From NCBI GenBank assembly GCA_023129115.1, contig JAGMCR010000002.1, positions 1 through 64,000 of the forward strand: a DNA stretch of 64,000 nt, written 5' to 3'. A program made the translations under genes and the position numbers. Source of the stretch: Candidatus Iainarchaeum sp. (lineage in GTDB: Archaea; B1Sed10-29; WALL01). Position 1 is the first letter of the stretch; each line of letters begins with the position of its first letter. Below are positions 24,695-40,383 of the stretch, in pieces. The notes beneath the pieces are model-generated. The model saw only the letters and a program-made list of their open reading frames with translations. It was not told the DNA's origin and ran no database searches.

Positions 24695-24912
24695 GCTGTT
24701 GAAAACACGCCAGTGGTATAAAAATAGGGGGGTGCGCCGTGGGGGCTCGGGAGCTCTAGTTTAGGACTCCGGAATGCACGAAAGGCAGAGCAGCCCAATT
24801 AAGCATATGCCGCAGTGAACACAGCCATTCTCCAACAGAAACAATAAAATAACTTTCTAGTGTAGTAGAAGATAAGAGTATATACCTCCTATTATAATAG
24901 AAAGTTATATAA

Positions 24913-26268
24913 ATGATAAGACATAAAAATAAGACTATGCGATTAGGCATAGGCCCTCTGCATGCTCGATTGGGTGAAGAAGATATTGCAAGGGCTTTGA
25001 AAAAATGGAATCAATGGTGGGTTATTCAAAAAGTTCCAAAAAATAAGTTGGGGATTAACCGCAACACCTACATCAAGGCCCTGAATGAGATGGTGTCGGC
25101 AGAAGAAATCGTGTGTTTGACAGGGGTAAGAAGAAGCGGAAAATCAACTCTGTTGCATCAAACCATCCAATCATTAATTGATGCCGGCACTAGCCCAAAC
25201 AACATTTTGTATGTCAATCTTGATGATCCTGTATTCCCACGCTCTATTGAAGGACTTGGGGATATTTTAGGGAAATATGGAGAACTAAAAAATCCTACTG
25301 GCAAAATCTATGTATTTTTTGATGAGGTGCAATCCATTCCTAACTGGGAAAGTTGGTTAAAATCAAAATATGATCAAAAAGAGAACATCAAATTTTTTGT
25401 GACAGGATCCAATTCTTCTCTACTGTCCAGCAACCTGTCTACTCTCCTCACCGGCAGAATGCTGAAACTCACAGTAATGCCTTTATCATTTAATGAGTTC
25501 TTGAAATTCAACAAAGTTGAGTTCAAGGACCTTGATCTGGACCAATCAAGACTAAAGTACCATCTTAGTAGTTACTTGGGAGAAGGGGGTTTTCCTCGCC
25601 CCGTGCTTGAGAAAGACAAAAATATGAAACAACAGCTTTTGAGAGAATATTATGATGGGATTCTCTTAAGGGATGTCCTAAAGGGAGCCAAAATCAAGTC
25701 GCCATCGAAGTTAATCGATTTAGCCCAGTTCGCTGCAGCCAACATAGGCAATCTACTCAGCTATAATAAAATTGGGGGCGCATTAGGTATATCTGATGAC
25801 TCAGTTAAGGAATATCTCCGTCTTTTAGAGAATTCATTCTTGTTGTCACAGGTAGAATTTTTCTCTTATTCTGTGAAAGAAACTGTGTCCATACAAAAGC
25901 CCAGGAAGAACTATCTTATTGATACAGGGATGAGGAACGCAGCGGGCTTTAGATTTAGCCCCGATAAAGGAAGATTAATGGAAAACCTGGTGTTCTTGGA
26001 ATTAAAGAGGAGAGGGCATGATGTCCATTATTGGAAGGGGCAAAATGAGGTTGACTTTGTGTTCAGGGCCGGCAACAAACTCCAGCTGGTTAATGTATGC
26101 TACAATCTTGGGAAATCAAAGAAAAGAGAATTAAATGGATTAATCGAAGCAATGAAAAAATTCAGGATCAATAACTCGATGATTATAACGTGGAGTACAG
26201 AGGGACAAGAAAAAATAGGCAAGAAAATCATCAATTTCGTTCCCCTGTACAAATGGTTGTTGGAGTAA
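24913..26268 (+). CDS. AAA_14/DUF4143 family ATPase
   Basis: GVRRSGKS, FFDEVQ, VTGSNS, LTGR, GGFP, K.YLIDTG, ENLVF and EVDFV motifs. Confidence 0.92.
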   Translation: MIRHKNKTMRLGIGPLHARLGEEDIARALKKWNQWWVIQKVPKNKLGINRNTYIKALNEMVSAEEIVCLTGVRRSGKSTLLHQTIQSLIDAGTSPNNILYVNLDDPVFPRSIEGLGDILGKYGELKNPTGKIYVFFDEVQSIPNWESWLKSKYDQKENIKFFVTGSNSSLLSSNLSTLLTGRMLKLTVMPLSFNEFLKFNKVEFKDLDLDQSRLKYHLSSYLGEGGFPRPVLEKDKNMKQQLLREYYDGILLRDVLKGAKIKSPSKLIDLAQFAAANIGNLLSYNKIGGALGISDDSVKEYLRLLENSFLLSQVEFFSYSVKETVSIQKPRKNYLIDTGMRNAAGFRFSPDKGRLMENLVFLELKRRGHDVHYWKGQNEVDFVFRAGNKLQLVNVCYNLGKSKKRELNGLIEAMKKFRINNSMIITWSTEGQEKIGKKIINFVPLYKWLLE

Positions 26269-26361
26269 ACCACAAAGGGAGGGACAAGCCCCCCCAATGC
26301 GCTTGTGGGTGCTATAACCATCTAGTTCAGGGCGCCGGAAGGGTTTTAAGGCCTTGTTGGG

Positions 26362-26628
26362 TCATCGGAAGAGCTTTTTGTATATGTTTTTCCTGTGGTC
26401 CACTAGAAGTACTTTGACCACTTTTTTCTTGAATACTACCTCGATTATCGCGCGGTATTCTCCGCCGCGTATTTTCCTAAGGCTGCACCCCCCAAGCGGG
26501 AAAGAATCATGGATTGGGTCATCGGTTAGTTTGCTGGCTTTTAGAACCAACTGTCTTGCCACCTTTTTTGGCAGCCCCCGGAGCTCTTTCCTTGCTTTCT
26601 TGTGCCACTTTACCTTGAAAGGCATCAC
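26362..26628 (-). CDS. RelE/ParE family toxin
   Basis: KARKELRGL...KIRGGEYRAI...VDHRKNIY. Confidence 0.88.
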   Translation of the reverse strand: MMPFKVKWHKKARKELRGLPKKVARQLVLKASKLTDDPIHDSFPLGGCSLRKIRGGEYRAIIEVVFKKKVVKVLLVDHRKNIYKKLFR

Positions 26629-26846
26629 AAACCAAACTCTTTTTCAATCTCTCCCTGCGAGACAAAGTCTTTGCTGCTGCTTCTCCTGACCGCCTCTGCA
26701 AGTATTTCTTCCTTGAGCTCGGGAGCGAACATCTTCCTCAACGCGTCACGCACGACCTCCGACTTATTGGGGTAAACCCCTTTGGACACAGAAGCGTCTA
26801 ACAGGCGGAACAATTCCTTACTCAATCGCACTTGCACCGTTTCCAT
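26625..26846 (-). CDS. Ribbon-helix-helix antitoxin
   Basis: METVQVRL...GVYPNKSEVVRDALR; 4-bp overlap with the toxin gene. Confidence 0.88.
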   Translation of the reverse strand: METVQVRLSKELFRLLDASVSKGVYPNKSEVVRDALRKMFAPELKEEILAEAVRRSSSKDFVSQGEIEKEFGL

Positions 26847-26856
26847 ACAACAACAC

Positions 26857-26880
26857 CTTGTAGTACATGTGTACTACAAG
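26857..26880. promoter_or_regulatory. Palindromic operator between the TATA box and the antitoxin start
   Basis: CTTGTAGTACA-TG-TGTACTACAAG (perfect 11-bp arms), adjacent to TTTATA on the minus strand. Confidence 0.75.
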
Positions 26881-26930
26881 CTATAAATAGGTTTCGGTTC
26901 AGGCCCAGTTAGTTCAGGACGCTCCCCCGG

Positions 26931-27183
26931 TTCTTTGCCGACTGGGCTTTTCTTTCGGGAAAGAAAAGCCTAGTGCGCTCGTGGAAAACAGCTGAAACTC
27001 AGCTGGCACGTTAGGTTTGGGGGCACAAGGCCCCCAGAGACAAGTTGTATTGTTCAAATAGTTTCTTTTGCCGACTGGGATTTTCTTTTCTAAAGAAAAG
27101 CCTAGTGCGCTTGTGGGGAACAGCCCAGACCTGGGCTGGCGAGGTAGGCTTGGAGGGTGCCGGTTGGCACCCCCCCAGAGGCA
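26931..27183 (+). repeat. Two tandem copies of a three-hairpin structured element (family A)
   Basis: Copies at about 26931-27042 and 27063-27183 share TTTGCCGACTGGG...AAAGAAAAGCCTAGTGCGCT, with compensatory changes in hairpins 2 and 3. Confidence 0.85.
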
Positions 27184-27214
27184 TTCAAACGTGGCCATAA
27201 CAGAAAAAGGGGGG

Positions 27215-27287
27215 TGCGCCGTGGGGGATTTGAACCCCCGTTATTGGCTTGGGAAGCCAAGGTCCTGCCAGGCTAGACTAACGGCGC
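27215..27287 (-). tRNA. tRNA-Gly(CCC)
   Basis: GCGCCGT acceptor stem, TTGGC-TT CCC AA-GCCAA anticodon arm and GGGGG TTCAAAT CCCCC T-arm. Confidence 0.97.
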
Positions 27288-27315
27288 ACTGCGAGCGAAG
27301 CGAGCTTTTTACCCA

Positions 27316-27407
27316 CTTTTACTGGGGGGCCGCTTCCCAGGGTATGACGTACATCCCGCCGGATGTTCGTCTGGGCGGGGGGCTGTGCCCCCCGGGACGC
27401 TGCTGGG
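27316..27407 (+). repeat. Structured element, family B (REP/MITE-like), upstream of tRNA-Gly
   Basis: TTTTACTGGGGGG..GCTTCCCA ... GCGGGGGGCTGTGCCCCCC.GGACGCTGCT matches the reverse complement of 40233-40369. Confidence 0.75.
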
Positions 27408-27505
27408 CTAACGGCGCGTGGGGGTTATTGGGAGCGAAGTGGTTTAAAATTGTTTTGAGGGGGCAAAGCGAAAACTCTTTAAACCCTTATTGCGTTTAGT
27501 TTTGC

Positions 27506-28030
27506 GTGGGAATATCAAGCCTGATTTATGACTCGTGGAAAATGGAGTGCCAGTTCCGCAAATACGACGGGATGCTGCCAATGCTCGAGGTAGTCAACCT
27601 CAAGGGCAAAGTCCTCGACGTCGGCATCGGCTCCGCGCTCTTCGAGGAATACCTCCGCGGAAAAGGCATAATCCTCGACGTCGTGGGAATCGACGAGGAC
27701 CCAATCATGCTCAAGACCGCGGCAAAAAAAGGGTACAATGCCGTGGCCGGCAGCGCCGAGCGGCTGCCCTTCGAAGACAACGAGTTCGACTTCGTGGTCT
27801 GCCTCGACACACTCCACGCCACCGAGGCCCGCAGGGCAATCAATGAAATGAAGCGCGTGCTGAAGCCGAGGGGCCACATCCTCCTCTCCAAGTTCTGCAA
27901 CGTCTTCAACAAGGCCCAGGCAATGGAAGAGCTCGAAGAGCTTGCGTACGGCATGCAGCTAATCAGCAAAAAAGTCGTTGGCCGCTCCGACGACGAGCTC
28001 AGTGCCGCCCTCCTCTGCAGAAAGGAATGA
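27506..28030 (+). CDS. Class I SAM methyltransferase
   Basis: VLDVGIGS and AERLPFEDNEFDFV motifs. Confidence 0.88.
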   Translation: MGISSLIYDSWKMECQFRKYDGMLPMLEVVNLKGKVLDVGIGSALFEEYLRGKGIILDVVGIDEDPIMLKTAAKKGYNAVAGSAERLPFEDNEFDFVVCLDTLHATEARRAINEMKRVLKPRGHILLSKFCNVFNKAQAMEELEELAYGMQLISKKVVGRSDDELSAALLCRKE

Positions 28031-28034
28031 AAAA

Positions 28035-28343
28035 ATGCAAGTCGACATCGTGCTCATCGAGGCCTTCGGGACCGCATTCTTCTTCCTGCTCTTCATTGTC
28101 TCTGCGTACTTCTACGGCTCGAACCCAAAGAACAAAATCCCAATCTACCTCTCCATAGCAATGATGTTCCTCGCGTTCCGCGAGGCAATGTACTTCCTCT
28201 CGGACAGCGGCGTCCTCGACGCCGGCTTCAGGGCCTACGGCGGGATAGTCTCGTTCTTCGCAGGAGTCCTCTTCCTCTACGTATTCATCGCCGAAGAAAA
28301 AGCAATGAAGGACATCCGCAGAATCAGGAACGCGTTCAAATAA
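28035..28343 (+). CDS. Small three-TM membrane protein
   Basis: Hydrophobicity and host-like codon usage. Confidence 0.7.
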   Translation: MQVDIVLIEAFGTAFFFLLFIVSAYFYGSNPKNKIPIYLSIAMMFLAFREAMYFLSDSGVLDAGFRAYGGIVSFFAGVLFLYVFIAEEKAMKDIRRIRNAFK

Positions 28344-28388
28344 CTACTTTGGCAAAGGCTCTTCCCCTACCTCACTCCGGTGCCTGCC

Positions 28389-29429
28389 CTACTTAAACTT
28401 CTTGGCTCCACCCATTGCCCTCACGTGCTCTTTGGCTTTTTTGTCCTTGCCCTTCAGCTGCCGTTCAATCGCTTCTGGCTTGAACCCGGGCTCGTGCTCG
28501 TGCCCCAGCTTCTTCATCTCCCAGAGCATATCCCGCTTCTTTTTGTCTCCCCAGTACTTCTGCTTCTCCCAAATCTCTGCCAGCTTGTCCTCCGGGAAGT
28601 AGCCAGTGTCGTGCAGCCTCTTGAGCTCGCCGCCGAGGATGCCCGCGGCCTCCCTAATATTTATGCGGTTCTGCTCCAGCTGGCCCAGCTTGAACGCGAC
28701 CGAGCGCCCAAGCAGCTCCCTGTGGTCAATCTTCCTTATGTCCTCCGCCAGCTTGTTCTTCTCGGCAAAGCTGCCGAGTGCCATCATGTCAGCTCCGCTG
28801 AGCCGCTCGTTCCTCAGCCTCCCCTTCATCGCCTCGAGGTTGGCTATAGTGCGCAGGTGCCCAAGCTCCCGCTTGTAAAAATGGACTATGAGCGGCGTGT
28901 TCTCATGCGGCTCGCCAGAAAGCCCGTACTTTTCCAGAACCTTGTTTTCTTCCTTGCGTATGTCCCCGTAGTACTGGTCGATGCCCTTGAACTTGTTCGC
29001 CCAGAACTTCTGTCTCGCGCTCCTGTAAACCGACTTTGGCACGTCCTCGCCCTTGTCAGCCGCCCGCTGCTGCCGCTCCACAAGACTCCAAATCGTTTTC
29101 ATGTGCTCTTCCTTGGGCTCGGCCTTTACCTTCCCCTCCTCAAAGAACTCCGGGTTTTGTGACGTGAAAATCATGCTTGGAAAGCGCGTCCTCCTGTCCT
29201 GGAACTCCATGATTTTGGGGTCCATCGACGGAGTCGCGTCAATAGTTTTTTTCCCGTACCTCCTAATCAGCCGCTGCTTCCTCTCCCAGTACATCCTGCC
29301 CTCCTTCGTGCGGTCGTTTGGAGTGGCCCCCATAATATGGTGCATCTCGCGCCCCACCTTCAGGGTTATCTCCGCGTTCGCGGCCTCCATGTAGCGCATC
29401 GGCACCATCGCCCGGGCCTTTTCCATCAT
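28389..29429 (-). CDS. Hypothetical charged helical protein
   Basis: 346 aa with host-like codon usage; TGATG-coupled to the upstream ORF. Confidence 0.7.
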   Translation of the reverse strand: MMEKARAMVPMRYMEAANAEITLKVGREMHHIMGATPNDRTKEGRMYWERKQRLIRRYGKKTIDATPSMDPKIMEFQDRRTRFPSMIFTSQNPEFFEEGKVKAEPKEEHMKTIWSLVERQQRAADKGEDVPKSVYRSARQKFWANKFKGIDQYYGDIRKEENKVLEKYGLSGEPHENTPLIVHFYKRELGHLRTIANLEAMKGRLRNERLSGADMMALGSFAEKNKLAEDIRKIDHRELLGRSVAFKLGQLEQNRINIREAAGILGGELKRLHDTGYFPEDKLAEIWEKQKYWGDKKKRDMLWEMKKLGHEHEPGFKPEAIERQLKGKDKKAKEHVRAMGGAKKFK

Positions 29430-29818
29430 CAGTCGTCGCCCCCCATCGCCACGTTCTGGAGCGCGTGCGAGTACTCGTGCACGAGGATTGCGCCCATTCT
29501 CTCGTTAATTGTGCCGTCGCTGTGGAACAAATTCTCTGGCACCTTGATGAACTCGCCGACCTGCCTCCCGCCGCGCGTCAGGCGCTCGTGCACGCCCATG
29601 GTCTTATACTTTCCCGACCGCGACAATTCACTTCCCGGCTCAACAATCAGCGGAATCTTCCCCTCGGCAGTCCGCTTCTTCAATTTCTTGACATACCCCG
29701 GGTCCGGCCACGGGTGCTTCGTGTCCTTGTGCTTCTCCGCCAATACGTCCATGGCCTCGCCAATCAATGCCACAAACGCCTGCAGGTTCTTTTCCCTGTC
29801 GTTTCCCATACGCATCAC
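29429..29818 (-). CDS. Small zincin-like (HExxH) protein
   Basis: AILVHEYSHALQ near the C-terminus. Confidence 0.6.
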   Translation of the reverse strand: MMRMGNDREKNLQAFVALIGEAMDVLAEKHKDTKHPWPDPGYVKKLKKRTAEGKIPLIVEPGSELSRSGKYKTMGVHERLTRGGRQVGEFIKVPENLFHSDGTINERMGAILVHEYSHALQNVAMGGDD

Positions 29819-29825
29819 CTTATGA

Positions 29826-30827
29826 CTACAATGCCTTAAATCCCTTACTGGTCAAAACCCCGGTGTACTCAATCCGCGCCCCTTGGCCCGGGCCGACCAG
29901 CCCCGGCTCAAGCGTGAACACCATCCCCTCCTCCAGCACGTCATCGCTCTCCGGCCCAAGGCTCGGCGACTCGTGGATCGCAAGCCCAACGCCGTGGCCC
30001 AAGCCATAGGGCCAATACTTCGCATAATTCCCGAAGCCCTTCTTCACAAGTTCGTACAACTCCTTGGCCTTCATGCCCGGCTGCGCCTCGCGCAGCGCCA
30101 GCCTGCTCGCCCCGAACACCGCCAGCAGCATCTTTTCCGTCCTCTTGTCCGGCGACCCGCACCGCGTGACCGTGATGTCACTGCAGTATCCACCCACAAT
30201 GCACCCAGTGTCGATAATCACAGTGTCTTTTTTCCCAATCCGCTTCGCAGTGGGCCGCGTGTGAATCAGTGTCGTGCTCTTCCCCGCCGCGACAATCGGG
30301 TCAAACGCAAGCGCCAGGCCGCGCTTTGCGTAGCCCGAGACCAGCTCGGCGTAAACTGCTTTTTCCGTCCTGCCCAGCAACGGCAGCTTTTTCAATACCC
30401 CCCTTGTTTCTGCGCACGCCATCGAAATATTCTTTATTTCCCCCCTCTCCTTGACCGCCCGCACCTTCTTCAGTTCCTTGCTTATGTCCACCAGGCGCGC
30501 GCCGCTCTTCTTCCTTATCCTCTTCGCCGCGCTCGCCGGCAAATAATCCATGTTCACGCCGATTTTCTTGGCCCTCCTCTTCTTGAGCTCGCGGTAAACT
30601 GTGTCCTCGCCCTTCTTCGGCACGAGCCGCGCCCGCCTCTTCTGTTTAGTGTCCCGCGTTATCAGTATCGGCTCCCGCCCGACCTTCCACAGCACCGTGC
30701 CGCCCGCCTGCCTCGCGTCCATCCCCGAGTAGTACTGCAGGTTCATGTCCGGCGCGTCGCCGCTGCTCGGGATGAGCACAGCGTCACACTTTTTTTCGGC
30801 GAGCGTGTCGAGCTTCCACGTCCTCAT
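29826..30827 (-). CDS. Xaa-Pro peptidase (M24B)
   Basis: IDTGC..GYCSDIT, GLGHGVGLAIHE and GMVFTLEPG motifs. Confidence 0.92.
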   Translation of the reverse strand: MRTWKLDTLAEKKCDAVLIPSSGDAPDMNLQYYSGMDARQAGGTVLWKVGREPILITRDTKQKRRARLVPKKGEDTVYRELKKRRAKKIGVNMDYLPASAAKRIRKKSGARLVDISKELKKVRAVKERGEIKNISMACAETRGVLKKLPLLGRTEKAVYAELVSGYAKRGLALAFDPIVAAGKSTTLIHTRPTAKRIGKKDTVIIDTGCIVGGYCSDITVTRCGSPDKRTEKMLLAVFGASRLALREAQPGMKAKELYELVKKGFGNYAKYWPYGLGHGVGLAIHESPSLGPESDDVLEEGMVFTLEPGLVGPGQGARIEYTGVLTSKGFKAL

Positions 30828-31726
30828 AACAGCTTCCCCTTGTCCATTATTTTCTTGTTGTCGAACCAAATCGTGGGCTTCCGGATTATGAAGTCCCAAT
30901 GAATTTCCGCGCCCACCGAGCCGCCCAGGCTCTTCGAGTCGCCGACCGCGATGTGGCACGTGCCCAATACTTTTTCGGCCTCGAGGGTGTTGTCCGTCGA
31001 CTTTGCGCCGGGATTCGTCCCAATCCCCAATTCCGCGATGTTCCGCGCGTTCCTGACCTTCCACAAGTGCCGCTTGAGGCGGGAGTTGCTGACGCCCACA
31101 ACTTTCCTGCCCTTCACCACAATCTTCACTTGCTTCTTCGTCAAGTGCAGGTCCTTCGCCGTGAAAAACCCGTCCGCGCCTCTGGGCGCCACCGCGGCCT
31201 CGCCGCTCGGAAGATTATGGATGCTCTTGCGGGGGAAGTCGCCGCCGTCGTCCGCGCGCCTGCACCCCCGCACGTCAATCACAATGTCCGTCCCACTCGC
31301 CACGATGCGGACCTTCTTCGCCTTGTGCAGCCCGTCCCCCACGCGCTTCGTGAGCCGCCGCACTTTTTTGTAGTCCACTCCAACGCCGCGCAAGAAAACA
31401 GCCCTCGTTATCCCCGGCAGAGTAATCACGGTCGCCCCGCTTTTCTTCGCGGCGCGGGACGCATTTGTGTGCGTCAATGAGTACTTGGTGGGGCAATAGA
31501 CAATGTCCACCTTCTTCATCGCCGCAGCCACTGCCTTCGGCGGCTCGCGGCCGTGCCCGCCCGTCTGCTTAATCACGATGATTTCCGCGCTGCACTTTTG
31601 TTTTGCAGCCTCGTAAATCGCTTTCCCGATTGCCAGGCTTGCCCTGTCAGTGACTACGAGGAGCCGCTCTTTTTTCTTTGGCTTTGCGAGCGCTACCGCG
31701 TTCCGCGCGGCGTCCATCAATTTCAT
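30824..31726 (-). CDS. Aminopeptidase (M29-like)
   Basis: NLPSGE, AELGIGTNP, EAEKVLGTCHIAVG and IHWD motifs. Confidence 0.9.
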   Translation of the reverse strand: MKLMDAARNAVALAKPKKKERLLVVTDRASLAIGKAIYEAAKQKCSAEIIVIKQTGGHGREPPKAVAAAMKKVDIVYCPTKYSLTHTNASRAAKKSGATVITLPGITRAVFLRGVGVDYKKVRRLTKRVGDGLHKAKKVRIVASGTDIVIDVRGCRRADDGGDFPRKSIHNLPSGEAAVAPRGADGFFTAKDLHLTKKQVKIVVKGRKVVGVSNSRLKRHLWKVRNARNIAELGIGTNPGAKSTDNTLEAEKVLGTCHIAVGDSKSLGGSVGAEIHWDFIIRKPTIWFDNKKIMDKGKLL

Positions 31727-31941
31727 TTGCGTACATCTCCTGGCTTCACTGTCGTGGGCTTCGCGGAGTCGGGGATTGTGAGCTCGCCGCCCCCGCCCAT
31801 TGGCTTGGCGCCCTTGCAGTTGCTGCAGAGCCCGTCCTGTGGGGAGAAGTGGTCCATACACACTTTCTTGCCGCACTTCCAGCAGACGCGGACTTCGCCG
31901 GTGTTGCCGCAGATGTCGCACTTTCCTGTTGGCATAGCCAA
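31723..31941 (-). CDS. Small Zn-finger protein
   Basis: CDIC, CWKCGKKVCMDH and CSNC motifs. Confidence 0.75.
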   Translation of the reverse strand: MAMPTGKCDICGNTGEVRVCWKCGKKVCMDHFSPQDGLCSNCKGAKPMGGGGELTIPDSAKPTTVKPGDVRK

Positions 31942-31970
31942 GCACTAATCGCGTGGGGAATAAAAGCCTT

Positions 31971-33158
31971 TCAGCCGAACACGAGCGAAAGGAAAAACAG
32001 GATTATGATGATTATGACTATCAGCGAGAGAACGCCGGCGCCGCCTGCCCCGCCTCCGCCTCCACCGCCACCGCCGCCAAGTTTCCTGGCGCCGAGCTGG
32101 CCCTCTGCAATCATTGCCTCGAACCTGCTCGCGCCTTCTGCCTCGCCCTCTCCCGCGGCGGCAAGTAGCCTCTCGCCCTCGCCCGGCTCGGCAAGGCCTT
32201 CGCCTTCTCCCGCGGCGGCGAGGAGGCCCTCGCCCTCTTCTGGCTGTTCTTCCTCTTCCGCTGGAGTTGGCTCTTCTTCTTCGGGCCTTCTGCGTGGCCT
32301 CTCCGGCTCTTCTTCCGCCCGCTCTCCCGGCCGCCTCCGTGGCGGGCGCGTTGGCTCTTCTTCTCCCGGCCTTCTGCGCCTTCTTGGTGGCCTCTCCTCT
32401 GCTTCTTCTTCTGGCGGCCTTCTCCTCCCCCATTCTTCGTGCCTGTTCCCGGCATCAGTTATGAGTGTCTCCAGCTCCGAGAGTATTCTCTCGCCGTCCC
32501 GCGTGTGGGCTATCATGTACCTTGCGCCGACTTCTTCGTTGAGTGGGCGCGAAAGAGTTACCCCGGTAGGTGTCAGGCCCGCGTCAATAAAGTCCTTCCT
32601 CGTCTTTGCCCACGTCTTAATGTCCCACTTTTTCCGCGTCTCCATAATATTCCGCGTTTCGGTGAATGAGAGGGCCCGGCTGAAGTGGTCTTTCTGTAAA
32701 TCCTGGAGCCTCTCCAGCATGGAGTTGGCTTCCCCGTGGTCTTCGGTCGTGCTCGCGCGGTGGATGAGCCTCTCGACTGCGTTTTCGGCCTCCTGGAACT
32801 TGGCCCCGCTCTGGTTATAGTAGTCCTCCTCCAGCACAACGCGGCCCCTGCGCCTTCTCCCCTGGTGGCCATGCCGCCCCTCGACCACCTTGATGTATGT
32901 TGGCCTTAGGGACTCAATGCCCCTGTCGACGCGGACCTTCTGGGACGCCATCGCCTTCTGGTAGCCCTTGACAGCGGCCTTCCTCTGTTTTCTCGTGTAG
33001 CCCAGCGCCTTCATGAGGCTTTTCCGGTCCTTCCACTTGGGCTTGTAGGTCTTCTTGATGCCCTTTGCCTCAATCTTTTTCTGCTTTTTGTACCTTACTT
33101 CCTGAAGCTCGTAAATTGTCTTCACTTTCTTCTTGAAGAGCTCCCGAATCCTTGGCAT
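31971..33158 (-). CDS. Hypothetical tail-anchored protein with R/E/P low-complexity repeats
   Basis: Basic N-terminus MPRI..., RPPRRRRPGEEE and LLAAAGEGE repeats, poly-Gly, C-terminal TM helix. Confidence 0.7.
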   Translation of the reverse strand: MPRIRELFKKKVKTIYELQEVRYKKQKKIEAKGIKKTYKPKWKDRKSLMKALGYTRKQRKAAVKGYQKAMASQKVRVDRGIESLRPTYIKVVEGRHGHQGRRRRGRVVLEEDYYNQSGAKFQEAENAVERLIHRASTTEDHGEANSMLERLQDLQKDHFSRALSFTETRNIMETRKKWDIKTWAKTRKDFIDAGLTPTGVTLSRPLNEEVGARYMIAHTRDGERILSELETLITDAGNRHEEWGRRRPPEEEAEERPPRRRRRPGEEEPTRPPRRRPGERAEEEPERPRRRPEEEEPTPAEEEEQPEEGEGLLAAAGEGEGLAEPGEGERLLAAAGEGEAEGASRFEAMIAEGQLGARKLGGGGGGGGGGAGGAGVLSLIVIIIIILFFLSLVFG

Positions 33159-33255
33159 TCAAACACTGCCGGCAACCCGTTGTTGCAATTATGTTTTTTG
33201 GTGTTTTTAAGTATTCATTGCGGTGGCTGGCGCATTGCACTCATTCATCTCAATC

Positions 33256-34950
33256 TCACGGGCGGTTAATCACCGTGTTCAGGAGGTCGTACATGCCCTG
33301 GAGCGCCGTCTGGTTCCCGTCCAGCGCGTCCCTCTTGAGGTCCGCGTACTGGCCCCTCTCGGCAGTGTCCATGGTATAGCTGGCGCTTATTTCATCCATC
33401 TTGGCGATGTTCTGGCTCACCCGGTCCAGCCCCCTCGTGAGGTTCCTCGTCAGGTCGCCAATGTTCTTCTTGGCCCCGTCCAGTTCTTTTTGGTGCTTGA
33501 GCTTCTTGTCCTCCACCGTGTTGAGCGTGTCCTTCAGGTCGGCGATTGTGTCCCTGTGCGCGTTCTGCAGCTCCGGGCTCCTCGCCATCATGGCGTCGAG
33601 GTTGCTCACGACCTTCTGGTAGTGCCCGACAGCATCGTTGAGCCCTTCCCTGGAAATGTCCTTGTGGCTGCTGAACGCAGTGAGCTGGTCCATCCCCTCC
33701 TTCAGGGTGGCCAGCGCGGCATCCACGGACATCTCGTACCCCTTCCTGCCAGGAGCGCCCGGCGCAGGCAGCTTTTTCTGTATCTGCCTGATGGCCTTGT
33801 TCGCCTTCACTGCATTGTTGTGCGTCCTGCGGACCTGCCTGGCGGACTCGGCCAGGGTATGCGAGATAAGTGTCGCGGCGCCCCTAATGTTCTCCAGCTC
33901 TGCGGTCATTGCCTCGTTCTGCCTCTGGTTGTGCCTGTAAGTCTTGTGGTACCCAATCCTGCCGCCGGACTGCGACACAGTGTCCAGGAAGTCAATGAGG
34001 TTGTCGGCGCTCCGCTCCACCTTCTGAACGTGGAGGCCGGCGCGCTGGTTCATGGTCGAGCGCATCGTGTGGTAGTTCTGCATGGTCTTGATTATGTCGC
34101 GCCGCATCTCCGGCCCAAGCCGCTTTATGCTGCCGTCCTTTTCCTTGAACAAGCCGTTCAAAAGCTCAAGCGTGCCGCCCCGCTGCGCGGCCTCGTTGAG
34201 CGTGAAGTCCTTGTACTCCTCCAGCGCCTCAACGTGCTCGTCGAGCAGCGACTTCGCGTCGTAAATGTTTTCGTCGATTATCTTGATTTGGTGGCTCAGC
34301 ATCCTCACCCGGTCTGCCAGCTCGAGCCCCCTCTCGCCGGTCTGCGTCGACTTGCGCCCGCGCAAGACCTTTCTCTGCTGCGTGAGGTCCGTCCGCAGGG
34401 CCTTTTGGTCCCGCATGTAATTCTTTACCGACGCCATGTTCCTGACGTTGTTCTGGAACGAGGCGATGTTCGCCAAGTGCTGCGCGATGCCCTGGAAAGC
34501 ACCCGAGTCCATTTTCGCGATGGTCCGCAGCTGAACCTTTGTGCCATTAATGGACTGTGCCGTGTACGGGCTCGGCGCCTCGTCAGTCGCCTTCCTCTCT
34601 GTCATGAACTCAAGCAGCTTGTGGTTCTTCACCAGCTTGGCGACCTTCTGGTCAATCTTTTTCTCTTGCTTCTGGTACTCCGCTTTGTTCACGACGTACT
34701 GCCTGTAATTCTTGAGGCCGCCTTTCTTGAAGAAAGAAACGATTCTGAAGCGGTCCGGCTTTTTGACCACGTCCGTGGGGAGCCACTCCCTTGCGCCAGG
34801 CACCAGCACCAATGGCTCTGCCCCCGAAGCCACCATCATTTTATTGGTCATGGTGTGGATGTTTTCCATCTCTGGCAGGAGGCCATGCTTTCTCCTGTGC
34901 CTCTCTGCGCGGCCTTCCAAGCTGAACATTCGTTTTAGGATACGGGGCAT
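33256..34950 (-). CDS. Hypothetical long coiled-coil protein
   Basis: 564 aa with AGGTG RBS, MPRI N-terminus and heptad-rich sequence. Confidence 0.75.
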   Translation of the reverse strand: MPRILKRMFSLEGRAERHRRKHGLLPEMENIHTMTNKMMVASGAEPLVLVPGAREWLPTDVVKKPDRFRIVSFFKKGGLKNYRQYVVNKAEYQKQEKKIDQKVAKLVKNHKLLEFMTERKATDEAPSPYTAQSINGTKVQLRTIAKMDSGAFQGIAQHLANIASFQNNVRNMASVKNYMRDQKALRTDLTQQRKVLRGRKSTQTGERGLELADRVRMLSHQIKIIDENIYDAKSLLDEHVEALEEYKDFTLNEAAQRGGTLELLNGLFKEKDGSIKRLGPEMRRDIIKTMQNYHTMRSTMNQRAGLHVQKVERSADNLIDFLDTVSQSGGRIGYHKTYRHNQRQNEAMTAELENIRGAATLISHTLAESARQVRRTHNNAVKANKAIRQIQKKLPAPGAPGRKGYEMSVDAALATLKEGMDQLTAFSSHKDISREGLNDAVGHYQKVVSNLDAMMARSPELQNAHRDTIADLKDTLNTVEDKKLKHQKELDGAKKNIGDLTRNLTRGLDRVSQNIAKMDEISASYTMDTAERGQYADLKRDALDGNQTALQGMYDLLNTVINRP

Positions 34951-35101
34951 ATCAACACCTTGTAACTACTGTGCAGTGACATTATGTCCGCAATTATTAT
35001 TAAACCTTGCCATACCCATGGACGTATTGGCGATTTAAAAGGGTTTCGGTGCCCTGGCGGGCATAATGCTTAATAAGGCGCCCGTGGGTAACAATGGCTT
35101 G

Positions 35102-36181
35102 ATGAAGAGCAACTTCAAGATATTCAACGTCATGGGCATAGACATTGAGCTCCACATATCGTTCATCCTGTTCGTGCTGCTCTTCCTGATTCTTGACGTG
35201 AGCTTCCTCGTGATTTTATTGGTGCTCTTCGCCTCAATCACGCTCCACGAGCTCTCCCACTCCATAATCGGCAAATTGAACGGCATCAACGTCAAGAAAA
35301 TCGTGCTCCTGCCAATCGGCGGCATGGCCGCGATGGACGAGGTGCAAATCAAGCCGTATTCCGAGTTCAAGATGGCGATTGCAGGCCCCCTGTTCAACTT
35401 TTTATTGTGCACCTTGATTGCGCTGGCCACCCAGCTCTTCGGCCTTCCGTTCCTGCTGGGGTGGGCGGACTGGAACGCGGCGGTGGGCGGCGCCATCACT
35501 GTCCCGCTCGCGACCACCCTGTGGTCGAGCACGTTCTGGCTGAACTGGCTGCTGGGCACTTTCAACCTGTTCGTGCCCGCTATTCCCCTGGACGGCGGCC
35601 GCGTCTTCCGCTCCGCACTGGCGATGGTGACGGACTACGTGAACGCGACCAGAATCGCGACCACGGTCTCGACCGTAATCACTTTTTTCCTGTTCATCTA
35701 CGCCTTGTTCACGTACAACATACTCTTGTTGGTCATCTCTATCTTCGTCTACCTTGGCGCGGTCTCGGAATTAGAATACGCCTTGTCCAACAAATTATTG
35801 GCGCACTTCCCACTGAAGCGCATCGTGCGCGCGAACTATTTAGTCCTGAAGCCAGCCACCAAATTGGACAAGGCGATTGAGGAAATGATTAAGTCGCGGT
35901 CGCTGGTGGTGTTCACCACAATCGGCAAGCACATGGAACTGGTGAGCCTCTACGACATCCGGCACGTCCCGAAGTCGAAGTGGAAGAACACGAGCCTAAA
36001 GGAAATCGCGAACAGGGTGCGCGCCGCGGAAGTCACGGACTCGGTGACCGCAGTAATGCACTCAATGATGCGCAACGGGCTCGAGGCAATGCCCGTAATC
36101 AGCGAAGAAGAACTCGCGGGAGTCGTCTTCCGCGACGACATTAACCGAGTTTTCGAGATACTGAAAGTGAGTAATCCTTGA
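35102..36181 (+). CDS. Site-2 protease (M50) with CBS domains
   Basis: HELSH, AGPLFN and NLFVPAIPLDGGR motifs; C-terminal CBS pair. Confidence 0.93.
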   Translation: MKSNFKIFNVMGIDIELHISFILFVLLFLILDVSFLVILLVLFASITLHELSHSIIGKLNGINVKKIVLLPIGGMAAMDEVQIKPYSEFKMAIAGPLFNFLLCTLIALATQLFGLPFLLGWADWNAAVGGAITVPLATTLWSSTFWLNWLLGTFNLFVPAIPLDGGRVFRSALAMVTDYVNATRIATTVSTVITFFLFIYALFTYNILLLVISIFVYLGAVSELEYALSNKLLAHFPLKRIVRANYLVLKPATKLDKAIEEMIKSRSLVVFTTIGKHMELVSLYDIRHVPKSKWKNTSLKEIANRVRAAEVTDSVTAVMHSMMRNGLEAMPVISEEELAGVVFRDDINRVFEILKVSNP

Positions 36182-36228
36182 GCAATGAGTCCAAGTGCTT
36201 CTTGATTAATGGCGCGTAGTGCTTTCCC

Positions 36229-36477
36229 TCACTGTCCGTCTTTGTGGTACAAGTCAAGGAAGACTATCGTGTCCTGGCTTTTGAGGCATAGGCAGGACAG
36301 CTTGAAGGGCGCAATGTAAACTTCCCCCGTGTTTTTTCGTGAGAAGCGCATTGGCTTTCCAACACTGGGGTCCCGCACAATCCTGGCGACCTGTTTTTTC
36401 ACCTTTTCTTTCAGGGCGTTGTCCCTTATCTTCTTGGCCCGTTTTTCAAAAACAGAGTCAGACCCAACAGTCACCAT
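36229..36477 (-). CDS. RelE/ParE family toxin (copy 1)
   Basis: KKQVARIVRDP.VGKPM...EVYIAPF.L...LDLYHKD. Confidence 0.8.
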   Translation of the reverse strand: MVTVGSDSVFEKRAKKIRDNALKEKVKKQVARIVRDPSVGKPMRFSRKNTGEVYIAPFKLSCLCLKSQDTIVFLDLYHKDGQ

Positions 36478-36740
36478 TTTTCAAGCTCTTTCAAAAACTC
36501 TTCGCCACTCACTTTTTTGAAGCGGCCTTTTTCGTAGCGCTTGAGCGCTTCTTCCGTGCGCTCGGCGAAGCGCAGGTCTTCTCCTATGTTCTCGCCGAAG
36601 TCGCTAACGCTCTTGAGAATGAACTTGTCCCCGCTCCTGATGACGACGAACTTCTCCCCCTCCCTGAAGCCCGCGCGCATGTCGCTGGGGATAACAATCT
36701 GGCCCTTGGAACTCATCTGGGTAACGCTAATATCAGGCAT
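36471..36740 (-). CDS. AbrB/MazE family antitoxin (copy 1)
   Basis: MSSKGQIVIPSDMR motif. Confidence 0.9.
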   Translation of the reverse strand: MPDISVTQMSSKGQIVIPSDMRAGFREGEKFVVIRSGDKFILKSVSDFGENIGEDLRFAERTEEALKRYEKGRFKKVSGEEFLKELEKW

Positions 36741-36801
36741 GAGGCAAGATATGTCTTACCTCATATACAAAGTTTTCTTTTCCAAAGAAAAACTGGAGCG
36801 C

Positions 36802-37209
36802 TTATTCTTGCTGTGACGGGTCTTTGAGCTGCTCCAGCACGCTCCGGACTTGCGGCAGTCCCTGCAGATTGTGCAACCTGTCCACGAAATCCTGTTTGAG
36901 TATGCCACCGCCCTCACCAATTAATGTTACCAAGTAATTCAAACAGTACTTAGAACTAGTCTTCAAGAGCTTGTACACTTTATCCTTGTTTTCTGTATAG
37001 TCCTGATCGCCCAGATAGTTTTCCTCGTAATGCTTGCTGCTTGCAGTGGAGATCTCATCCATCAAGTCGCATAGCTCCTGCGCTTCTTTAAGGTCGATAT
37101 GCGTCCTGATTTCCTTGCTGTGGATGTAAACCGGCTTCGTGAATTTCGCGAAATTAGTAATGTCTTTCCTCAGCTGCTCTTCGTTGCCATGTCTTATTTT
37201 GAGACCCAT
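36802..37209 (-). CDS. Hypothetical protein in a single-gene cassette
   Basis: 135-aa ORF lying between two GAGCGCT sites. Confidence 0.65.
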   Translation of the reverse strand: MGLKIRHGNEEQLRKDITNFAKFTKPVYIHSKEIRTHIDLKEAQELCDLMDEISTASSKHYEENYLGDQDYTENKDKVYKLLKTSSKYCLNYLVTLIGEGGGILKQDFVDRLHNLQGLPQVRSVLEQLKDPSQQE

Positions 37210-37436
37210 ACATGGCTTTAGGGGCTGTGAGAATAAACAAGGATTGGAGCGCTAGGGGCAAACCAGTATACGGAGTTGACTTTTCGACTTTGAAGTCGAT
37301 TTACCAGCCTATTTCATAAGGGGGCAAGGCAGGGGCGGGTAGCACCAAACAGGCCCATGATTGGTTTTTCGGCCAATTGATTGGTTTTTGGCGTTATAGG
37401 CAACCTTTATATATTATACATGTTATGTATAATGCC

Positions 37437-39995: not shown

Positions 39996-40015
39996 AATAA
40001 AAGCGCTAGGGGCAG

Positions 40016-40150
40016 TGTCATAACGCCTGAAACTCAGGCGGCACGTTAGACGAGGGAGGCGCAAGGCCTCCCGGCGGCATTTTCCATCGACGCTTTTCTA
40101 CCGAGCAGCCGCTGAGCAGGCAAGCGAAGTGGCTGTAACAGAAAAAGGGT
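40016..40150 (+). repeat. Structured element, family A (partial copy), at the tRNA-Ser 3' flank
   Basis: CGCCTGA-AAC-TCAGGCG GCACGTTAG GGGAGGC-GCAAG-GCCTCCC ... GTGGC..TAACAGAAAAAGGG, matching 26989-27040 and 27191-27211. Confidence 0.8.
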
Positions 40151-40154
40151 CGAG

Positions 40155-40239
40155 CGCTAGGGGCAGGATTTGAACCTGCACGGGCCGAAGCCCACCGGCT
40201 CTCAAGGCCGGCGCGTTAACCGGATTCCGCCACCCTAGC
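40155..40239 (-). tRNA. tRNA-Ser(TGA)
   Basis: GCTAGGG acceptor stem, CCGGC-CT TGA GA-GCCGG anticodon arm, long variable arm and G discriminator. Confidence 0.97.
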
Positions 40240-40369: not shown

Positions 40370-40383
40370 TATTACTTAAAAAA

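What the first reader, a model, noticed from the sequence alone, without database searches (positions are those of the whole stretch)
26931..27211. Covarying three-hairpin non-coding element (family A) at the 3' flank of both cassette-bearing tRNAs
Seen in sequence: two tandem copies lie next to tRNA-Gly and a partial third copy next to tRNA-Ser (40016-40150). Hairpin 2 is CAGCTGA-AAC-TCAGCTG, CAGCCCAG-AC-CTGGGCTG or CGCCTGA-AAC-TCAGGCG. Hairpin 3 is GGGGGC-ACAAG-GCCCCC, GGGTGCC-GGTT-GGCACCC or GGGAGGC-GCAAG-GCCTCCC. The linker GCACGTTAG is conserved in two copies, and TGCC/GGCA can close a multi-way junction. Both loci end with GTGGC(CA/TG)TAACAGAAAAAGGG against the tRNA. The stems change sequence but keep their pairing, and G-T wobbles favour folding of the + strand, antisense to the tRNA. 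Inference: this structure is under selection. It could be an ssDNA recombination site (attC-like), a mobile ncRNA or ribozyme, or a MITE that targets tRNA ends. I do not recognise the family.
Basis: partly seen in the sequence, partly recalled or inferred. Interest (0 to 1): 0.8.

Follow-up and report, generated by a model that had tools for sequence, protein, structure and literature searches.

The report
Mobile hairpin repeats behind tRNA genes
The flagged stretch is made of copies of a small two-hairpin DNA repeat, found only in this archaeal genus, that has repeatedly been inserted just behind tRNA genes and other genes while duplicating the end of the gene it lands next to, so that the gene stays intact.

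Summary
The "three-hairpin element" is a composite. Its repeated unit is a 57-65 nt two-hairpin core: hairpin 2, linker GCACGTTAG, hairpin 3, then AGAGRCA. "Hairpin 1" is a T-run trailer hairpin that lies next to a decayed copy of the tRNA-Gly 3' end.

A covariance model finds 48 cores in this 1.25-Mb genome, 32 and 5 in two genomes of the same genus, and none in 58 other archaeal genomes. In this genome 24 of 48 cores lie within 300 nt downstream of a tRNA or RNase P RNA gene (chance about 0.5), and 23 of those 24 are antisense to it. Twenty of 48 cores are bracketed by a direct repeat of the neighbouring gene's end: 13-19 nt at tRNAs and 21 to about 86 nt at protein genes. Sister genomes hold empty sites with one copy of the repeat and no core.

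This is therefore an inserted, mobile, mosaic repeat family, not shown to be an RNA gene. Rfam has no match. No Cas1, reverse transcriptase, Y1 or DDE transposase turned up in the three incomplete genomes. The insertion mechanism is unknown, and why the duplication is anchored at gene ends is unexplained.

The parts
27215..27287 (-). tRNA-Gly(CCC), the gene behind which the elements lie; its last ~15 nt (27214-27228 on +) are the sequence that is duplicated
   Evidence: ARAGORN 27212-27288; Rfam tRNA 64.2 bits at 27215-27287
27184..27214 (+). Tail of unit 2 (X type), TTCAAACGTGGCCATAACAGAAAAAGGGGG. On the tRNA strand it reads CCCCCTTTTTCTGTTA..., a T-run directly after the tRNA
   Evidence: Sequence. 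The same tail follows tRNA-Thr(GGT) on contig C4, a tRNA-Gly end copy on contig C2, and tRNA-Gly(GCC) in G002. The motif CYTTTT(Y)CTGY lies within 25 nt downstream of 7 of 46 tRNAs, against 0.05 expected
27121..27183 (+). Core copy 2 (subfamily b): hairpin 2 at 27121-27138, linker GCGAGGTAG, hairpin 3, AGAGGCA
   Evidence: Covariance model hit 27120-27184, 36.4 bits, E 1e-6
27105..27120 (.). Decayed copy 1 of the tRNA-Gly 3' end (GTGCGCTTGTGGGG+AA), abutting hairpin 2 of core copy 2
   Evidence: Aligns to 27214-27228. The G002 orthologous tRNA-Gly(CCC) lacks this copy and the X unit; there the tRNA is followed directly by the Y hairpin
27066..27104 (.). On the tRNA strand it reads GGCTTTTCTTT...AAAGAAAAGCC, with a T-run
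   Evidence: The same hairpin follows tRNA-Gly(GCC) on contig C2 directly, and tRNA-Gly(CCC) and tRNA-Ser(TGA) in G002
27043..27065 (.). Spacer AGTTGTATTGTTCAAATAGTTTC between core copy 1 and the Y hairpin; it recurs with Y-type units
26989..27042 (+). Core copy 1 (subfamily a): hairpin 2 at 26989-27005, linker 27006-27014, hairpin 3 at 27019-27035, AGAGACA at 27036-27042
   Evidence: Covariance model hit 26988-27043, 76.6 bits, E 2.5e-16
26973..26988 (.). Decayed copy 2 of the tRNA-Gly 3' end (GTGCGCTCGTGG+AAAA), abutting hairpin 2 of core copy 1
   Evidence: With the Y hairpin it forms a 51-nt direct repeat with the matching stretch of unit 2 (score 69)
26934..26972 (.). Y-type trailer hairpin, copy 1
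   Evidence: Inverted repeat 26941-26956/26959-26974, 94% complementary
24727..24745 (.). Third, perfect 19-nt copy of the tRNA-Gly 3' end plus GGGGGG (= 27209-27227). It is the far border of a 2.2-kb island
   Evidence: The island carries an AAA_14/DUF4143 ATPase and an RHH/ParE pair
40154..40239 (-). tRNA-Ser(TGA); its last 14 nt (40153-40166 on +) are duplicated
40080..40152 (+). Z-type tail of unit 3, ending GTAACAGAAAAAGGGTCG next to the tRNA
   Evidence: The same module sits behind tRNA-Ser(GGA), behind the ...GGMPGMM* gene on contig C1, and elsewhere
40024..40079 (+). Core copy 3: hairpin 2 at 40024-40040, linker 40041-40049, hairpin 3 variant, GGCGGCA
   Evidence: Covariance model hit 40023-40080, 51.7 bits, E 2e-10
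40002..40015 (.). Perfect 14-nt copy of the tRNA-Ser 3' end (AGCGCTAGGGGCAG), 8 nt (TGTCATAA) from hairpin 2
   Evidence: Direct repeat D2, 100% identical, spacing 151
27289..27417 (.).
   Evidence: Direct repeat D3, 27272-27287/27402-27417, 88%; family copies on other contigs

Best explanation
The region holds three copies of a non-autonomous, mosaic insertion element that is confined to this archaeal genus.

Anatomy. The basic unit is a 57-65 nt two-hairpin core, 5'-CAGCTGA-AAC-TCAGCTG / GCACGTTAG / GGG...CCC stem-loop / AGAGRCA-3'. It occurs alone or joined to tail modules (X, Y, Z) that end in ...ACAGAAAAAGG.

Shown:
- The element was inserted at gene ends after the species of the genus diverged.
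- Each insertion comes with a duplication of the target.
- One edge of the duplicated segment lies within a few bases of the gene's end (tRNA discriminator base or stop codon). The other edge lies 13 to about 86 nt inside the gene, and at tRNAs it lies in the T-loop.
- The gene therefore stays whole. A dead copy of its end is left beyond the insert, next to hairpin 2.
- Behind tRNAs the element is almost always antisense, so the tRNA strand reads tRNA-CCCTTTTTCTG..., that is, the insert supplies a T-run.
- Repeated hits or later unequal exchange give arrays of the form (gene end - element)n, as at tRNA-Gly in the window.

Inferred:
- The two target strands are opened at staggered positions, the element is joined in, and the gaps are filled. 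An enzyme acting in trans, not identified here, would do this. Alternatives are a target-primed copying step or a replication template switch.
- The hairpins would be the recognition or end-defining structures at the DNA level.
For: 1. Family size and range. nhmmer finds 54 copies. The covariance model R1 finds 48 in G000, 32 in G002 and 5 in G001, all of one genus, and 0 in the other 58 of 61 genomes searched. An exact-motif scan of 185,579 species genomes gave 31 stretches. Only 8 of them, all from one archaeal single-cell genome, pass the model. Two of 2 metagenome contigs pass and 0 of 2 viral contigs pass.

2. Placement. 24 of 48 cores lie within 300 nt downstream of 19 of 47 tRNA or RNase P RNA genes. 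Random placement gives a mean of 0.49 and a maximum of 3 in 2000 trials. 23 of the 24 are antisense (binomial p 3e-6; copies are not all independent).

3. Duplications at tRNAs. The last 13 nt of 11 of 46 tRNAs recur, with at most 1 mismatch, within 700 nt downstream, against 1 of 46 upstream. The repeats are 13-19 nt long, start in the T-loop and end 0-5 nt past the tRNA.

4. Duplications at cores. 20 of 48 cores have a direct repeat (score 23 or more) that abuts hairpin 2 within 7 nt. With mismatched partners this holds for 7 of 468.

5. Filled and empty sites:
- Contig C9 gene: 49-nt repeat present three times around two cores in G000; one copy and no core in G002.
- C19:64317: repeat of about 86 nt; empty in G002.
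- C19:13071: 21-nt repeat that keeps the upstream stop codon and the downstream ribosome-binding site and start codon; empty in G002 and G001.
- tRNA-Glu(TTC): 126-nt insert with a 19-nt repeat in G000; empty in G002.
- tRNA-Arg(CCG): filled in G002; empty in G000.
- tRNA-Ser(GGA): filled in G000; empty on metagenome contig L149.
- Contig L148: minimal core between 14-nt repeats of a tRNA end.
- Window: G002's tRNA-Gly(CCC) lacks the X unit and end copy 1.

6. Not a described RNA family. Rfam gives nothing for the element.
Against: No enzyme was found. There is no Cas1, RVT_1 or Y1_Tnp, and only a sub-threshold DDE_Tnp_1 fragment, in G000-G002. No multi-copy ORF family exists in G000. The flanks of the four TnpB-like genes are unrelated to the cores. 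These assemblies are only 84-89% complete.

The element has no terminal inverted repeats. Its target duplication varies from 13 to about 86 nt, which no characterised transposase or casposase produces.

The anchoring of one edge at gene ends has no mechanistic explanation. Selection alone should allow more spread beyond the gene end.

28 of 48 cores show no flanking repeat. These include the co-oriented arrays on contig C7, which may have another history.

The strong orientation bias and the conserved T-run would also fit a selected role in transcript 3'-end formation.

No excised or circular form and no transcript was observed.
Confidence: 0.62

Rival explanations
1. This is not a true transposon but a by-product of replication or repair. 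Forks stall at highly transcribed, structured gene ends, the nascent strand switches to a hairpin repeat elsewhere, copies it, and returns behind the point where it left. That leaves a templated insert flanked by a duplication of variable length (microhomology-mediated template switching).
For: - The flanking duplications are variable and long, 13 to about 86 nt.
- A few odd bases lie between hairpin 2 and the repeat.
- The composites are extremely mosaic and nested.
- Orphan copies of a tRNA-Leu end sit inside a tRNA-Arg locus.
- No transposase was found in three genomes.
- tRNA genes are the preferred sites.
Against: - The same two element ends recur at most sites (the start of hairpin 2, and AGAGRCA or ACAGAAAAAGG). 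Free template switching should give ragged ends.
- 23 of 24 copies share one orientation at tRNA and RNase P RNA genes.
- The family has reached 48 copies of one unit.
- No junction microhomology was demonstrated here.
Confidence: 0.15
2. The units are miniature derivatives or remnants of elements integrated by a tyrosine recombinase at tRNA 3' ends. On this reading the direct repeats are attL/attR, and the core is the arm next to attR.
For: - Repeats running from the T-loop to the tRNA end are the classical att layout.
- Contig C12, 77.5-103 kb, holds 13 copies of the tRNA-Thr 3' end. An intact tyrosine recombinase gene (389 aa, Phage_integrase 85 bits) sits just after one of them, and cores abut some of these copies.
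- In the window, 2.2-2.7 kb islands with toxin-antitoxin genes are bounded by the same tRNA-end copies.
- The bases between hairpin 2 and the repeat look like a degenerate T-loop.
Against: - One core family sits at about 20 different tRNAs and at unrelated protein genes, including one inside an operon. Each would need its own attP carrying that gene's end.
- G002 has 32 cores and no Phage_integrase hit; G001 has only a partial hit.
- Units of 57-140 nt encode nothing.
Confidence: 0.08
3. The core is a functional structured RNA or a cis-acting transcript element, such as a terminator, a 3'-end stabiliser or an antisense RNA to the gene end. On this reading it is kept by selection, and the duplications are incidental.
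For: - Covariation is strong.
- Both strands fold well.
- The orientation relative to tRNAs is fixed.
- A T-run is placed right after the tRNA.
- One U-G is conserved on the + strand only.
Against: - Wobbles in the real stems are balanced between the strands, 12 against 10, as expected for DNA palindromes.
- Presence and absence vary between sister species at orthologous genes.
- The family is absent outside one genus.
- There is no Rfam match.
- Some copies lie in the opposite orientation to the neighbouring gene, behind the ...GGMPGMM* gene and tRNA-Glu(TTC) in G002.
Confidence: 0.07
4. The core is an attC-like single-stranded recombination site of an integron-like cassette system.
For: - Co-oriented cores lie every 1-3 kb between small ORFs on contig C7 and on G002 contig C6.
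- The linker GTTAGGC fits the GTTRRRY consensus. That consensus is recalled, not taken from a tool result.
Against: - The core is two separate short hairpins, not one long imperfect hairpin with paired R''/R' ends.
- No integrase lies next to the arrays, and G002 has none at all.
- Half of the copies sit at tRNA ends with target duplications, which attC x attI recombination does not make.
Confidence: 0.02

Closest known systems
Bacterial REP / BIME elements (with RAYT transposases)
   Same: Short GC-rich palindromes, many per genome, outside genes and mostly behind gene 3' ends. They combine into mosaic units and are confined to particular lineages. Subfamily b even carries GTAG in the linker. 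The REP features listed here are recalled from general knowledge.
   Different: No Y1/RAYT gene in the three genomes. REPs do not duplicate their target. REPs are bacterial. Here there is strong tRNA preference and orientation.
Casposons (Cas1-driven transposons) integrating at tRNA 3' ends
   Same: They insert at the 3' end of a tRNA gene and duplicate its terminal bases. In Aciduliprofundum boonei the duplication is 14-15 bp, lies next to and partly overlaps tRNA-Pro, and the target motif recognised, TCAAATC, lies in the leader 8 bp upstream of the duplicated segment (PMC6614799, passages read). That this motif is the tRNA's T-loop sequence is my own reading. Repeated insertion would give repeat-insert-repeat arrays, as in CRISPR loci.
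   Different: No Cas1 in the genus. No terminal inverted repeats. The duplication varies from 13 to about 86 nt and also occurs at protein genes. The element is 57-140 nt and carries no genes.
Integrative elements using tyrosine recombinases at tRNA genes
   Same: Direct repeats made of the tRNA 3' end from the T-loop onward. One such element, with its recombinase gene, lies at tRNA-Thr in this genome.
   Different: One element family at about 20 different tRNAs and at protein genes. It has no coding capacity. The core-rich genome G002 has no detectable recombinase.
MITEs of archaea and bacteria
   Same: Small, non-coding, multi-copy, structured, inserted after speciation.
   Different: No terminal inverted repeats, no short fixed duplication and no parent insertion sequence.
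SINE/LINE-type target-primed retroposition, including tRNA-gene-targeting elements of Dictyostelium (recalled, not tested against any paper here)
   Same: Target duplications of variable length, one constant end, an A-run near one terminus (ACAGAAAAAGG) facing a T-run at the target, and flanking sequence carried along.
   Different: No reverse transcriptase in G000-G002. Minimal cores lack the A-run. Nothing of this kind is known in archaea, as far as I recall.

Membership tests
Rfam RNA families (any) | Match to a curated covariance model at its gathering score | tested here: not met
   Only tRNAs in the window. Nothing above noise at E up to 10 on 26700-27600. Only RNase P RNA in 16 other loci that carry cores
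REP/BIME | An associated RAYT (Y1 HUH transposase) gene in the genome | tested here: not met
   PF01797 has no hit in G000. The genome is 88.6% complete, and G001/G002 were not searched with this family
REP/BIME | Extragenic palindromes in mosaic combinations behind genes | tested here: met
MITE | Terminal inverted repeats and a short target duplication of fixed length | tested here: not met
   The ends are CAGCTG... and ...AGAGRCA or ACAGAAAAAGG, which are not inverted copies of each other. Duplications run from 13 to about 86 nt
MITE | A related autonomous insertion sequence | tested here: not met
   No multi-copy ORF family. DDE_Tnp_1 gives only a 20-bit fragment. TnpB flanks are unrelated
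Casposon or derivative | Cas1 (casposase) in the element or the genome | tested here: not met
   PF01867: 0 of 3 genomes of the genus
Casposon or derivative | Target duplication at the 3' end of a tRNA gene | tested here: met
   The length is not fixed at 14-15 bp
Tyrosine-recombinase integrative element | An integrase gene in the element or available in trans | tested here: inconclusive
   One intact gene in G000 at C12:78360-79529, a partial hit in G001, none in G002
Tyrosine-recombinase integrative element | One specific attB per element type | tested here: not met
   The same core lies at about 20 tRNA species and at several protein genes
Integron attC | A single imperfect hairpin with paired R''/R' ends next to cassettes, with an IntI integrase and attI | tested here: not met
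   Two independent hairpins. No integrase near the arrays
Retroposon (target-primed) | A reverse transcriptase available | tested here: not met
   PF00078: 0 of 3 genomes; the genomes are incomplete
Functional ncRNA | A discrete transcript from one strand | not testable with these tools
   No RNA run is listed for this DNA

The most novel reading that the evidence does not exclude
The family spreads by an integration route not yet described in archaea. This route opens the target at a gene's very end and at a second point inside the gene, and so always rebuilds the gene it hits. Two forms fit the data. One is a SINE-like, target-primed copying of an element RNA whose A-run pairs with the T-run terminator behind genes. 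The other is a Cas1-independent integrase that reads the T-loop as casposases do. In both, the enzyme would be supplied in trans by a virus or plasmid that is not in these assemblies.
Probability: 0.15. Interest if true: 0.85.

Novelty: new variant of a known kind. Interest (0 to 1): 0.6.

Why it matters
Small-genome archaea are thought to carry few mobile elements. Here about half of the tRNA genes of a 1.25-Mb genome are followed by copies of one tiny structured repeat.

Each insertion spares the gene by copying its end. That is a neat way for selfish DNA to live in a genome with almost no spare room. It also leaves a readable record: dead gene ends that date and order the insertions.

The same tRNA-end copies bound small islands carrying toxin-antitoxin genes, so the process may also shape accessory gene content.

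If the enzyme or process behind it is new, it would add a third route to tRNA-end targeting beside tyrosine integrases and casposases.

In practice, these repeats break assemblies, and their partial tRNA-end copies and hairpins could be mistaken for RNA genes or split tRNAs in such genomes.

Tried and rejected
- RNA evidence: no RNA holder is listed for window 26300-27900. Three DNA runs of one study hold it.
- Laying contigs of those runs on 26000-41000 gave mostly cross-matches from other copies of the repeat and contig breaks at the repeats. No usable allele without the insert was seen.
- MAFFT plus RNAalifold on 20 copies missed hairpin 2, because the two subfamilies are shifted by one column. 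I replaced this with a hand-written structure on 11 copies and re-alignment to the model.
- The 3-mismatch scan for tRNA ends was too noisy, and its output was cut. I replaced it with stricter tests that have controls.
- A split or intron-bearing tRNA reading: ARAGORN with introns added 10 tRNA calls, of which I kept 8 after dropping two with introns over 1 kb. Three of the 8 have a core behind them. The copies at C12:84.5 kb and 92.7 kb have no 5' tRNA half nearby.
- TnpB guide-RNA scaffold reading: the flanks of the 4 TnpB-like genes share nothing with the cores.
- Viral origin: 2 exact-motif hits in viral contigs, neither of which passes the model.
- Literature: five full-text searches found no description of such elements. 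They covered archaea/tRNA genes/MITE/target duplication; an isolate name; 'downstream of tRNA genes' with hairpin repeat; templated insertion; and DPANN with hairpin and tRNA. Two further queries failed on syntax. Supplements were not consulted.
Full report
WHAT IS AT THE COORDINATES

The finding lies on the + strand directly beside tRNA-Gly(CCC). ARAGORN places the tRNA at 27212-27288 on the minus strand, and Rfam at 27215-27287. In the sense of the tRNA the element is therefore its 3' flank.

The two tandem units are real. Direct repeats 26934-26955/27067-27088 and 26960-26992/27092-27124 lie 132-133 nt apart. The third copy beside tRNA-Ser(TGA) (40154-40239, minus) is real too.

The 281 nt fold much better than shuffles on both strands: z -5.5 and -4.6, with 0 of 200 shuffles as good. 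Rfam has nothing for it, either at gathering scores over the whole window or at E up to 10 over 26700-27600.

An iterated nhmmer search seeded with 26985-27045 finds 54 copies in the 1.25-Mb, 19-contig genome. What recurs is hairpin 2, the linker GCACGTTAG (GCGMGGTAG in a second subfamily), hairpin 3 and AGAGRCA.

I built a covariance model from 11 copies with a hand-written structure. It finds 55 matches in the window plus 35 fetched loci. On that alignment:
- 95.7% of cells pair.
- 14 of 15 pairs show two-sided changes (108 cells).
- 0 of 500 column shuffles reach the observed values.
- Sliding the partners by 1-3 columns drops pairing to 34-60%.

The alignment is fitted to the model, which helps pairing. 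Independently of it, all 20 near-full copies fold into the same two hairpins on their own. There are 21 distinct hairpin 2 stems and 21 distinct hairpin 3 stems. The covariation claim therefore stands.

The strand claim does not stand. Inside the two real stems there are 12 G-U cells on the + strand and 10 A-C cells, which would be G-U on the other strand. Only one conserved U-G, in a 3-bp outer extension, is specific to the + strand. These are palindromes on both strands.

Hairpin 1, with the TGCC of the proposed junction, is a different module (see below).

DISTRIBUTION

The model finds 48 copies in this genome, 32 in G002 and 5 in G001, both of the same genus. It finds none in the other 58 genomes searched: 3 further genera of the family, then the order, class and domain. 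The stricter filters were in use, and many of these genomes are incomplete.

An exact 17-nt motif scan of one genome for each of 185,579 species gave 31 stretches. The model accepts 8 of them, all from one archaeal single-cell genome record; the rest are chance hits in unrelated organisms. Two metagenome contigs carry true copies and two viral contigs do not.

PLACEMENT

With 46 tRNAs (ARAGORN with introns, after dropping two calls with introns over 1 kb) and the RNase P RNA:
- 24 of 48 cores lie within 300 nt downstream of 19 of these 47 genes.
- Random placement gives 0.49 on average and never more than 3.
- 23 of the 24 are antisense to the gene.
- One more core abuts tRNA-Asp.

THE KEY FEATURE: COPIES OF THE GENE END

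At tRNA-Ser in the window, the 14 nt AGCGCTAGGGGCAG at 40002-40015 are identical to the tRNA's last 14 nt at 40153-40166. They bracket a 137-nt insert.

At tRNA-Gly, decayed copies of the tRNA end (26973-26984 and 27105-27118) sit directly before each hairpin 2.

Genome-wide:
- The last 13 nt of 11 of 46 tRNAs recur, with at most one mismatch, within 700 nt downstream, against 1 of 46 upstream.
- The repeats are 13-19 nt long, begin in the T-loop and end 0-5 nt past the tRNA. The inserts are 61-291 nt, and hairpin 2 nearly always faces the distal copy.
- Taking the cores as the starting point, 20 of 48 have a repeat of score 23 or more abutting hairpin 2 within 7 nt. With mismatched partners this is 7 of 468.

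Several of these repeats are ends of protein genes:
- 49 nt: the last 15 codons, the stop codon and one further base of a 300-aa ORF on contig C9, present three times around two cores.
- About 86 nt at C19:64317.
- 56 nt at C13:112802.
- 21 nt at C19:13071.
- 24 nt behind a gene on contig C1 that ends ...GGMPGMM*.

Reading hairpin 1 correctly. It is a T-run hairpin (Y module) that follows tRNA-Gly(GCC) on contig C2 directly, and tRNA-Gly(CCC) and tRNA-Ser(TGA) in G002. In the window it always follows a copy of the tRNA-Gly end. The 51-nt repeat (tRNA end plus Y hairpin) is thus a duplicated target, and the insert is core 1 plus a 23-nt spacer.

The unit nearest the tRNA (27121-27214) is a core of subfamily b with an X tail. 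Its last bases, read on the tRNA strand, give CCCCCTTTTTCTGTTA. The same tail, or the related Z tail, follows 7 of 46 tRNAs within 25 nt, against 0.05 expected.

INSERTION IS SHOWN BY EMPTY SITES

- G002 has the contig C9 gene with one copy of the 49 nt and no core.
- G002 has C19:64317 empty.
- G002 and G001 both have C19:13071 empty. There the 21-nt duplication in G000 keeps the stop codon of the upstream gene in one copy, and the ribosome-binding site and start codon of the overlapping downstream gene in the other.
- tRNA-Glu(TTC) has a 126-nt insert and a 19-nt repeat in G000 and is empty in G002.
- tRNA-Arg(CCG) is filled in G002 and empty in G000.
- G002's tRNA-Gly(CCC) lacks the X unit and end copy 1 of the window (part of that output was cut).
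- Metagenome contig L149 holds the empty form of the tRNA-Ser(GGA) site, and L148 a minimal core between 14-nt copies of a tRNA end.
- G001 shows a tandem array (repeat plus core) at what looks like the 5' end of a protein gene.

Insertions have therefore happened in both directions since these species split.

WHAT MOVES IT

I could not find out.
- No Cas1 in the genus.
- No RVT_1 in G000-G002.
- No Y1_Tnp in G000.
- Only a 20-bit DDE fragment.
- No multi-copy ORF family.
- Four TnpB-like genes whose flanks share nothing with the cores.
- One intact tyrosine recombinase, at C12:78360-79529. It sits in a 28-kb stretch with 13 copies of the tRNA-Thr 3' end downstream of tRNA-Thr(CGT), and some of those copies are joined to cores.
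- G002, with 32 cores, has no such hit, and G001 only a partial one.
- All three assemblies are 84-89% complete, so absence is not proven.

MECHANISM, STATED WITH ITS WEAK POINTS

Shown: insertion, target duplication, orientation bias, and sparing of the gene.

Inferred: staggered opening of the target, joining of a defined 57-140 nt element, and fill-in.

Against a classical transposase or casposase stand the variable length of the duplication (13 to about 86 nt) and the lack of inverted ends. Against a tyrosine integrase stand the number of different targets and the missing gene in G002.

A template-switch origin fits several points: the variable duplications, the stray bases at junctions, the mosaics, and the orphan tRNA-Leu end inside a tRNA-Arg locus. 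It does not easily give the constant element ends or the 23 of 24 shared orientation.

A target-primed, SINE-like route would explain three things: the variable duplications, the A-run terminus facing the T-run behind genes, and the orientation. But no reverse transcriptase was found, and the minimal cores lack the A-run.

One thing remains unexplained. The outer edge of the duplication sits within 0-5 nt of the gene end in almost every case, which selection alone should not enforce so tightly. The one clear exception is tRNA-Gly(GCC) in G002, where the repeat holds 4 nt of tRNA and 10 nt of trailer.

COMPARISON WITH KNOWN SYSTEMS

In look and habitat the family resembles REP/BIME elements, but it lacks their transposase and it makes duplications.

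In target choice it resembles casposons. For the A. boonei casposase the passages I read state a 14-15-bp duplication next to and partly overlapping tRNA-Pro, and recognition of TCAAATC upstream of the duplicated segment (PMC6614799). That this motif is the T-loop sequence is my own reading. Here there is no Cas1, and the duplication is not fixed.

It fails the defining tests for MITEs, attC sites and integrase elements (see the membership table).

Five full-text searches found no description of such elements.

VERDICT

The ncRNA or ribozyme reading is not supported. The "mobile element that targets tRNA ends" reading is supported and extended.

This is a new variant of small non-autonomous mobile DNA, with an unusual insertion footprint that spares the gene. 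It is worth following up for its mechanism.

Noticed in passing
window 24727-26972: A perfect 19-nt copy of the tRNA-Gly 3' end plus GGGGGG (24727-24745 = 27209-27227) bounds a 2.2-kb, partly AT-rich island. The island carries an AAA_14/DUF4143 ATPase (24913-26268, +) and an RHH/ParE toxin-antitoxin pair (26362-26846, -). It holds no integrase.
   Followed up: partly
window 37248-40001: A 13-nt copy of the tRNA-Ser 3' end (37248-37260) bounds a 2.7-kb island. The island has a ParE gene (39417-39689), a MazE-like/ParE-like pair (38804-39315) and weak, below-cut-off AbiEi/AbiEii hits (37377-38776). A further MazE-like/ParE-like pair lies just outside it at 36229-36740. G002 has a different neighbour at this tRNA.
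   Followed up: partly
window 27289-27417 and 40240-40382: A second repeat family (AGCGTCC, a G6...C6 hairpin...CCCTGGGAAGC...) lies upstream of tRNA-Gly and tRNA-Ser. At tRNA-Gly it is closed by a 16-nt copy of the tRNA 5' end, and the old TTTTAAA box stays with the dead copy. This is the same gene-end duplication, here at a 5' end. tRNA-Cys has a similar 13-nt 5' copy 93 nt upstream.
   Followed up: partly
G000 C12:74872-103070: Thirteen copies of the tRNA-Thr 3' end (CCTCCCGAGGCTC, at most 1 mismatch) lie within 28 kb downstream of tRNA-Thr(CGT). Two recurring left contexts precede them, and a 389-aa tyrosine recombinase gene follows one of them. This looks like a stack of integrated elements.
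   Followed up: partly
G000 C7:66800-72500 (L006) and G002 C6:8-22 kb: Cores in one orientation lie every 1-3 kb between small ORFs of unknown function. On contig C7 several are preceded by a conserved ~40 nt and followed by GAAAAAGGCTTTTATA, which looks like an archaeal promoter. No flanking duplications were seen here.
   Followed up: partly
G000 C7:13924-14318: A core lies 71 nt downstream of the RNase P RNA gene (Rfam 107 bits) and is antisense to it, as at tRNAs.
   Followed up: no
L053 1440-1500 and L059 (G002 tRNA-Gly and tRNA-Ser trailers): A further small hairpin module (GACGTTGACTCAAGTCAACGTC with flanks) is nested in the loop of the Y hairpin in G002. Related copies occur in G000 at C12:84.5 kb.
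   Followed up: no
G000 C3:9490-10881, C3:78954-79910, C3:100743-102602, C13:134129-135208: Four TnpB-like ORFs (Cas12f1-like TNB domain, 59-82 bits), in two pairs with similar ends. No TnpA was found, and they have no link to the cores.
   Followed up: partly
G000 C5:68700-68960: A copy of a tRNA-Leu 3' end lies inside the stack of elements behind tRNA-Arg(TCT), far from any tRNA-Leu gene. This suggests that flanking target copies can be carried along with an element.
   Followed up: no
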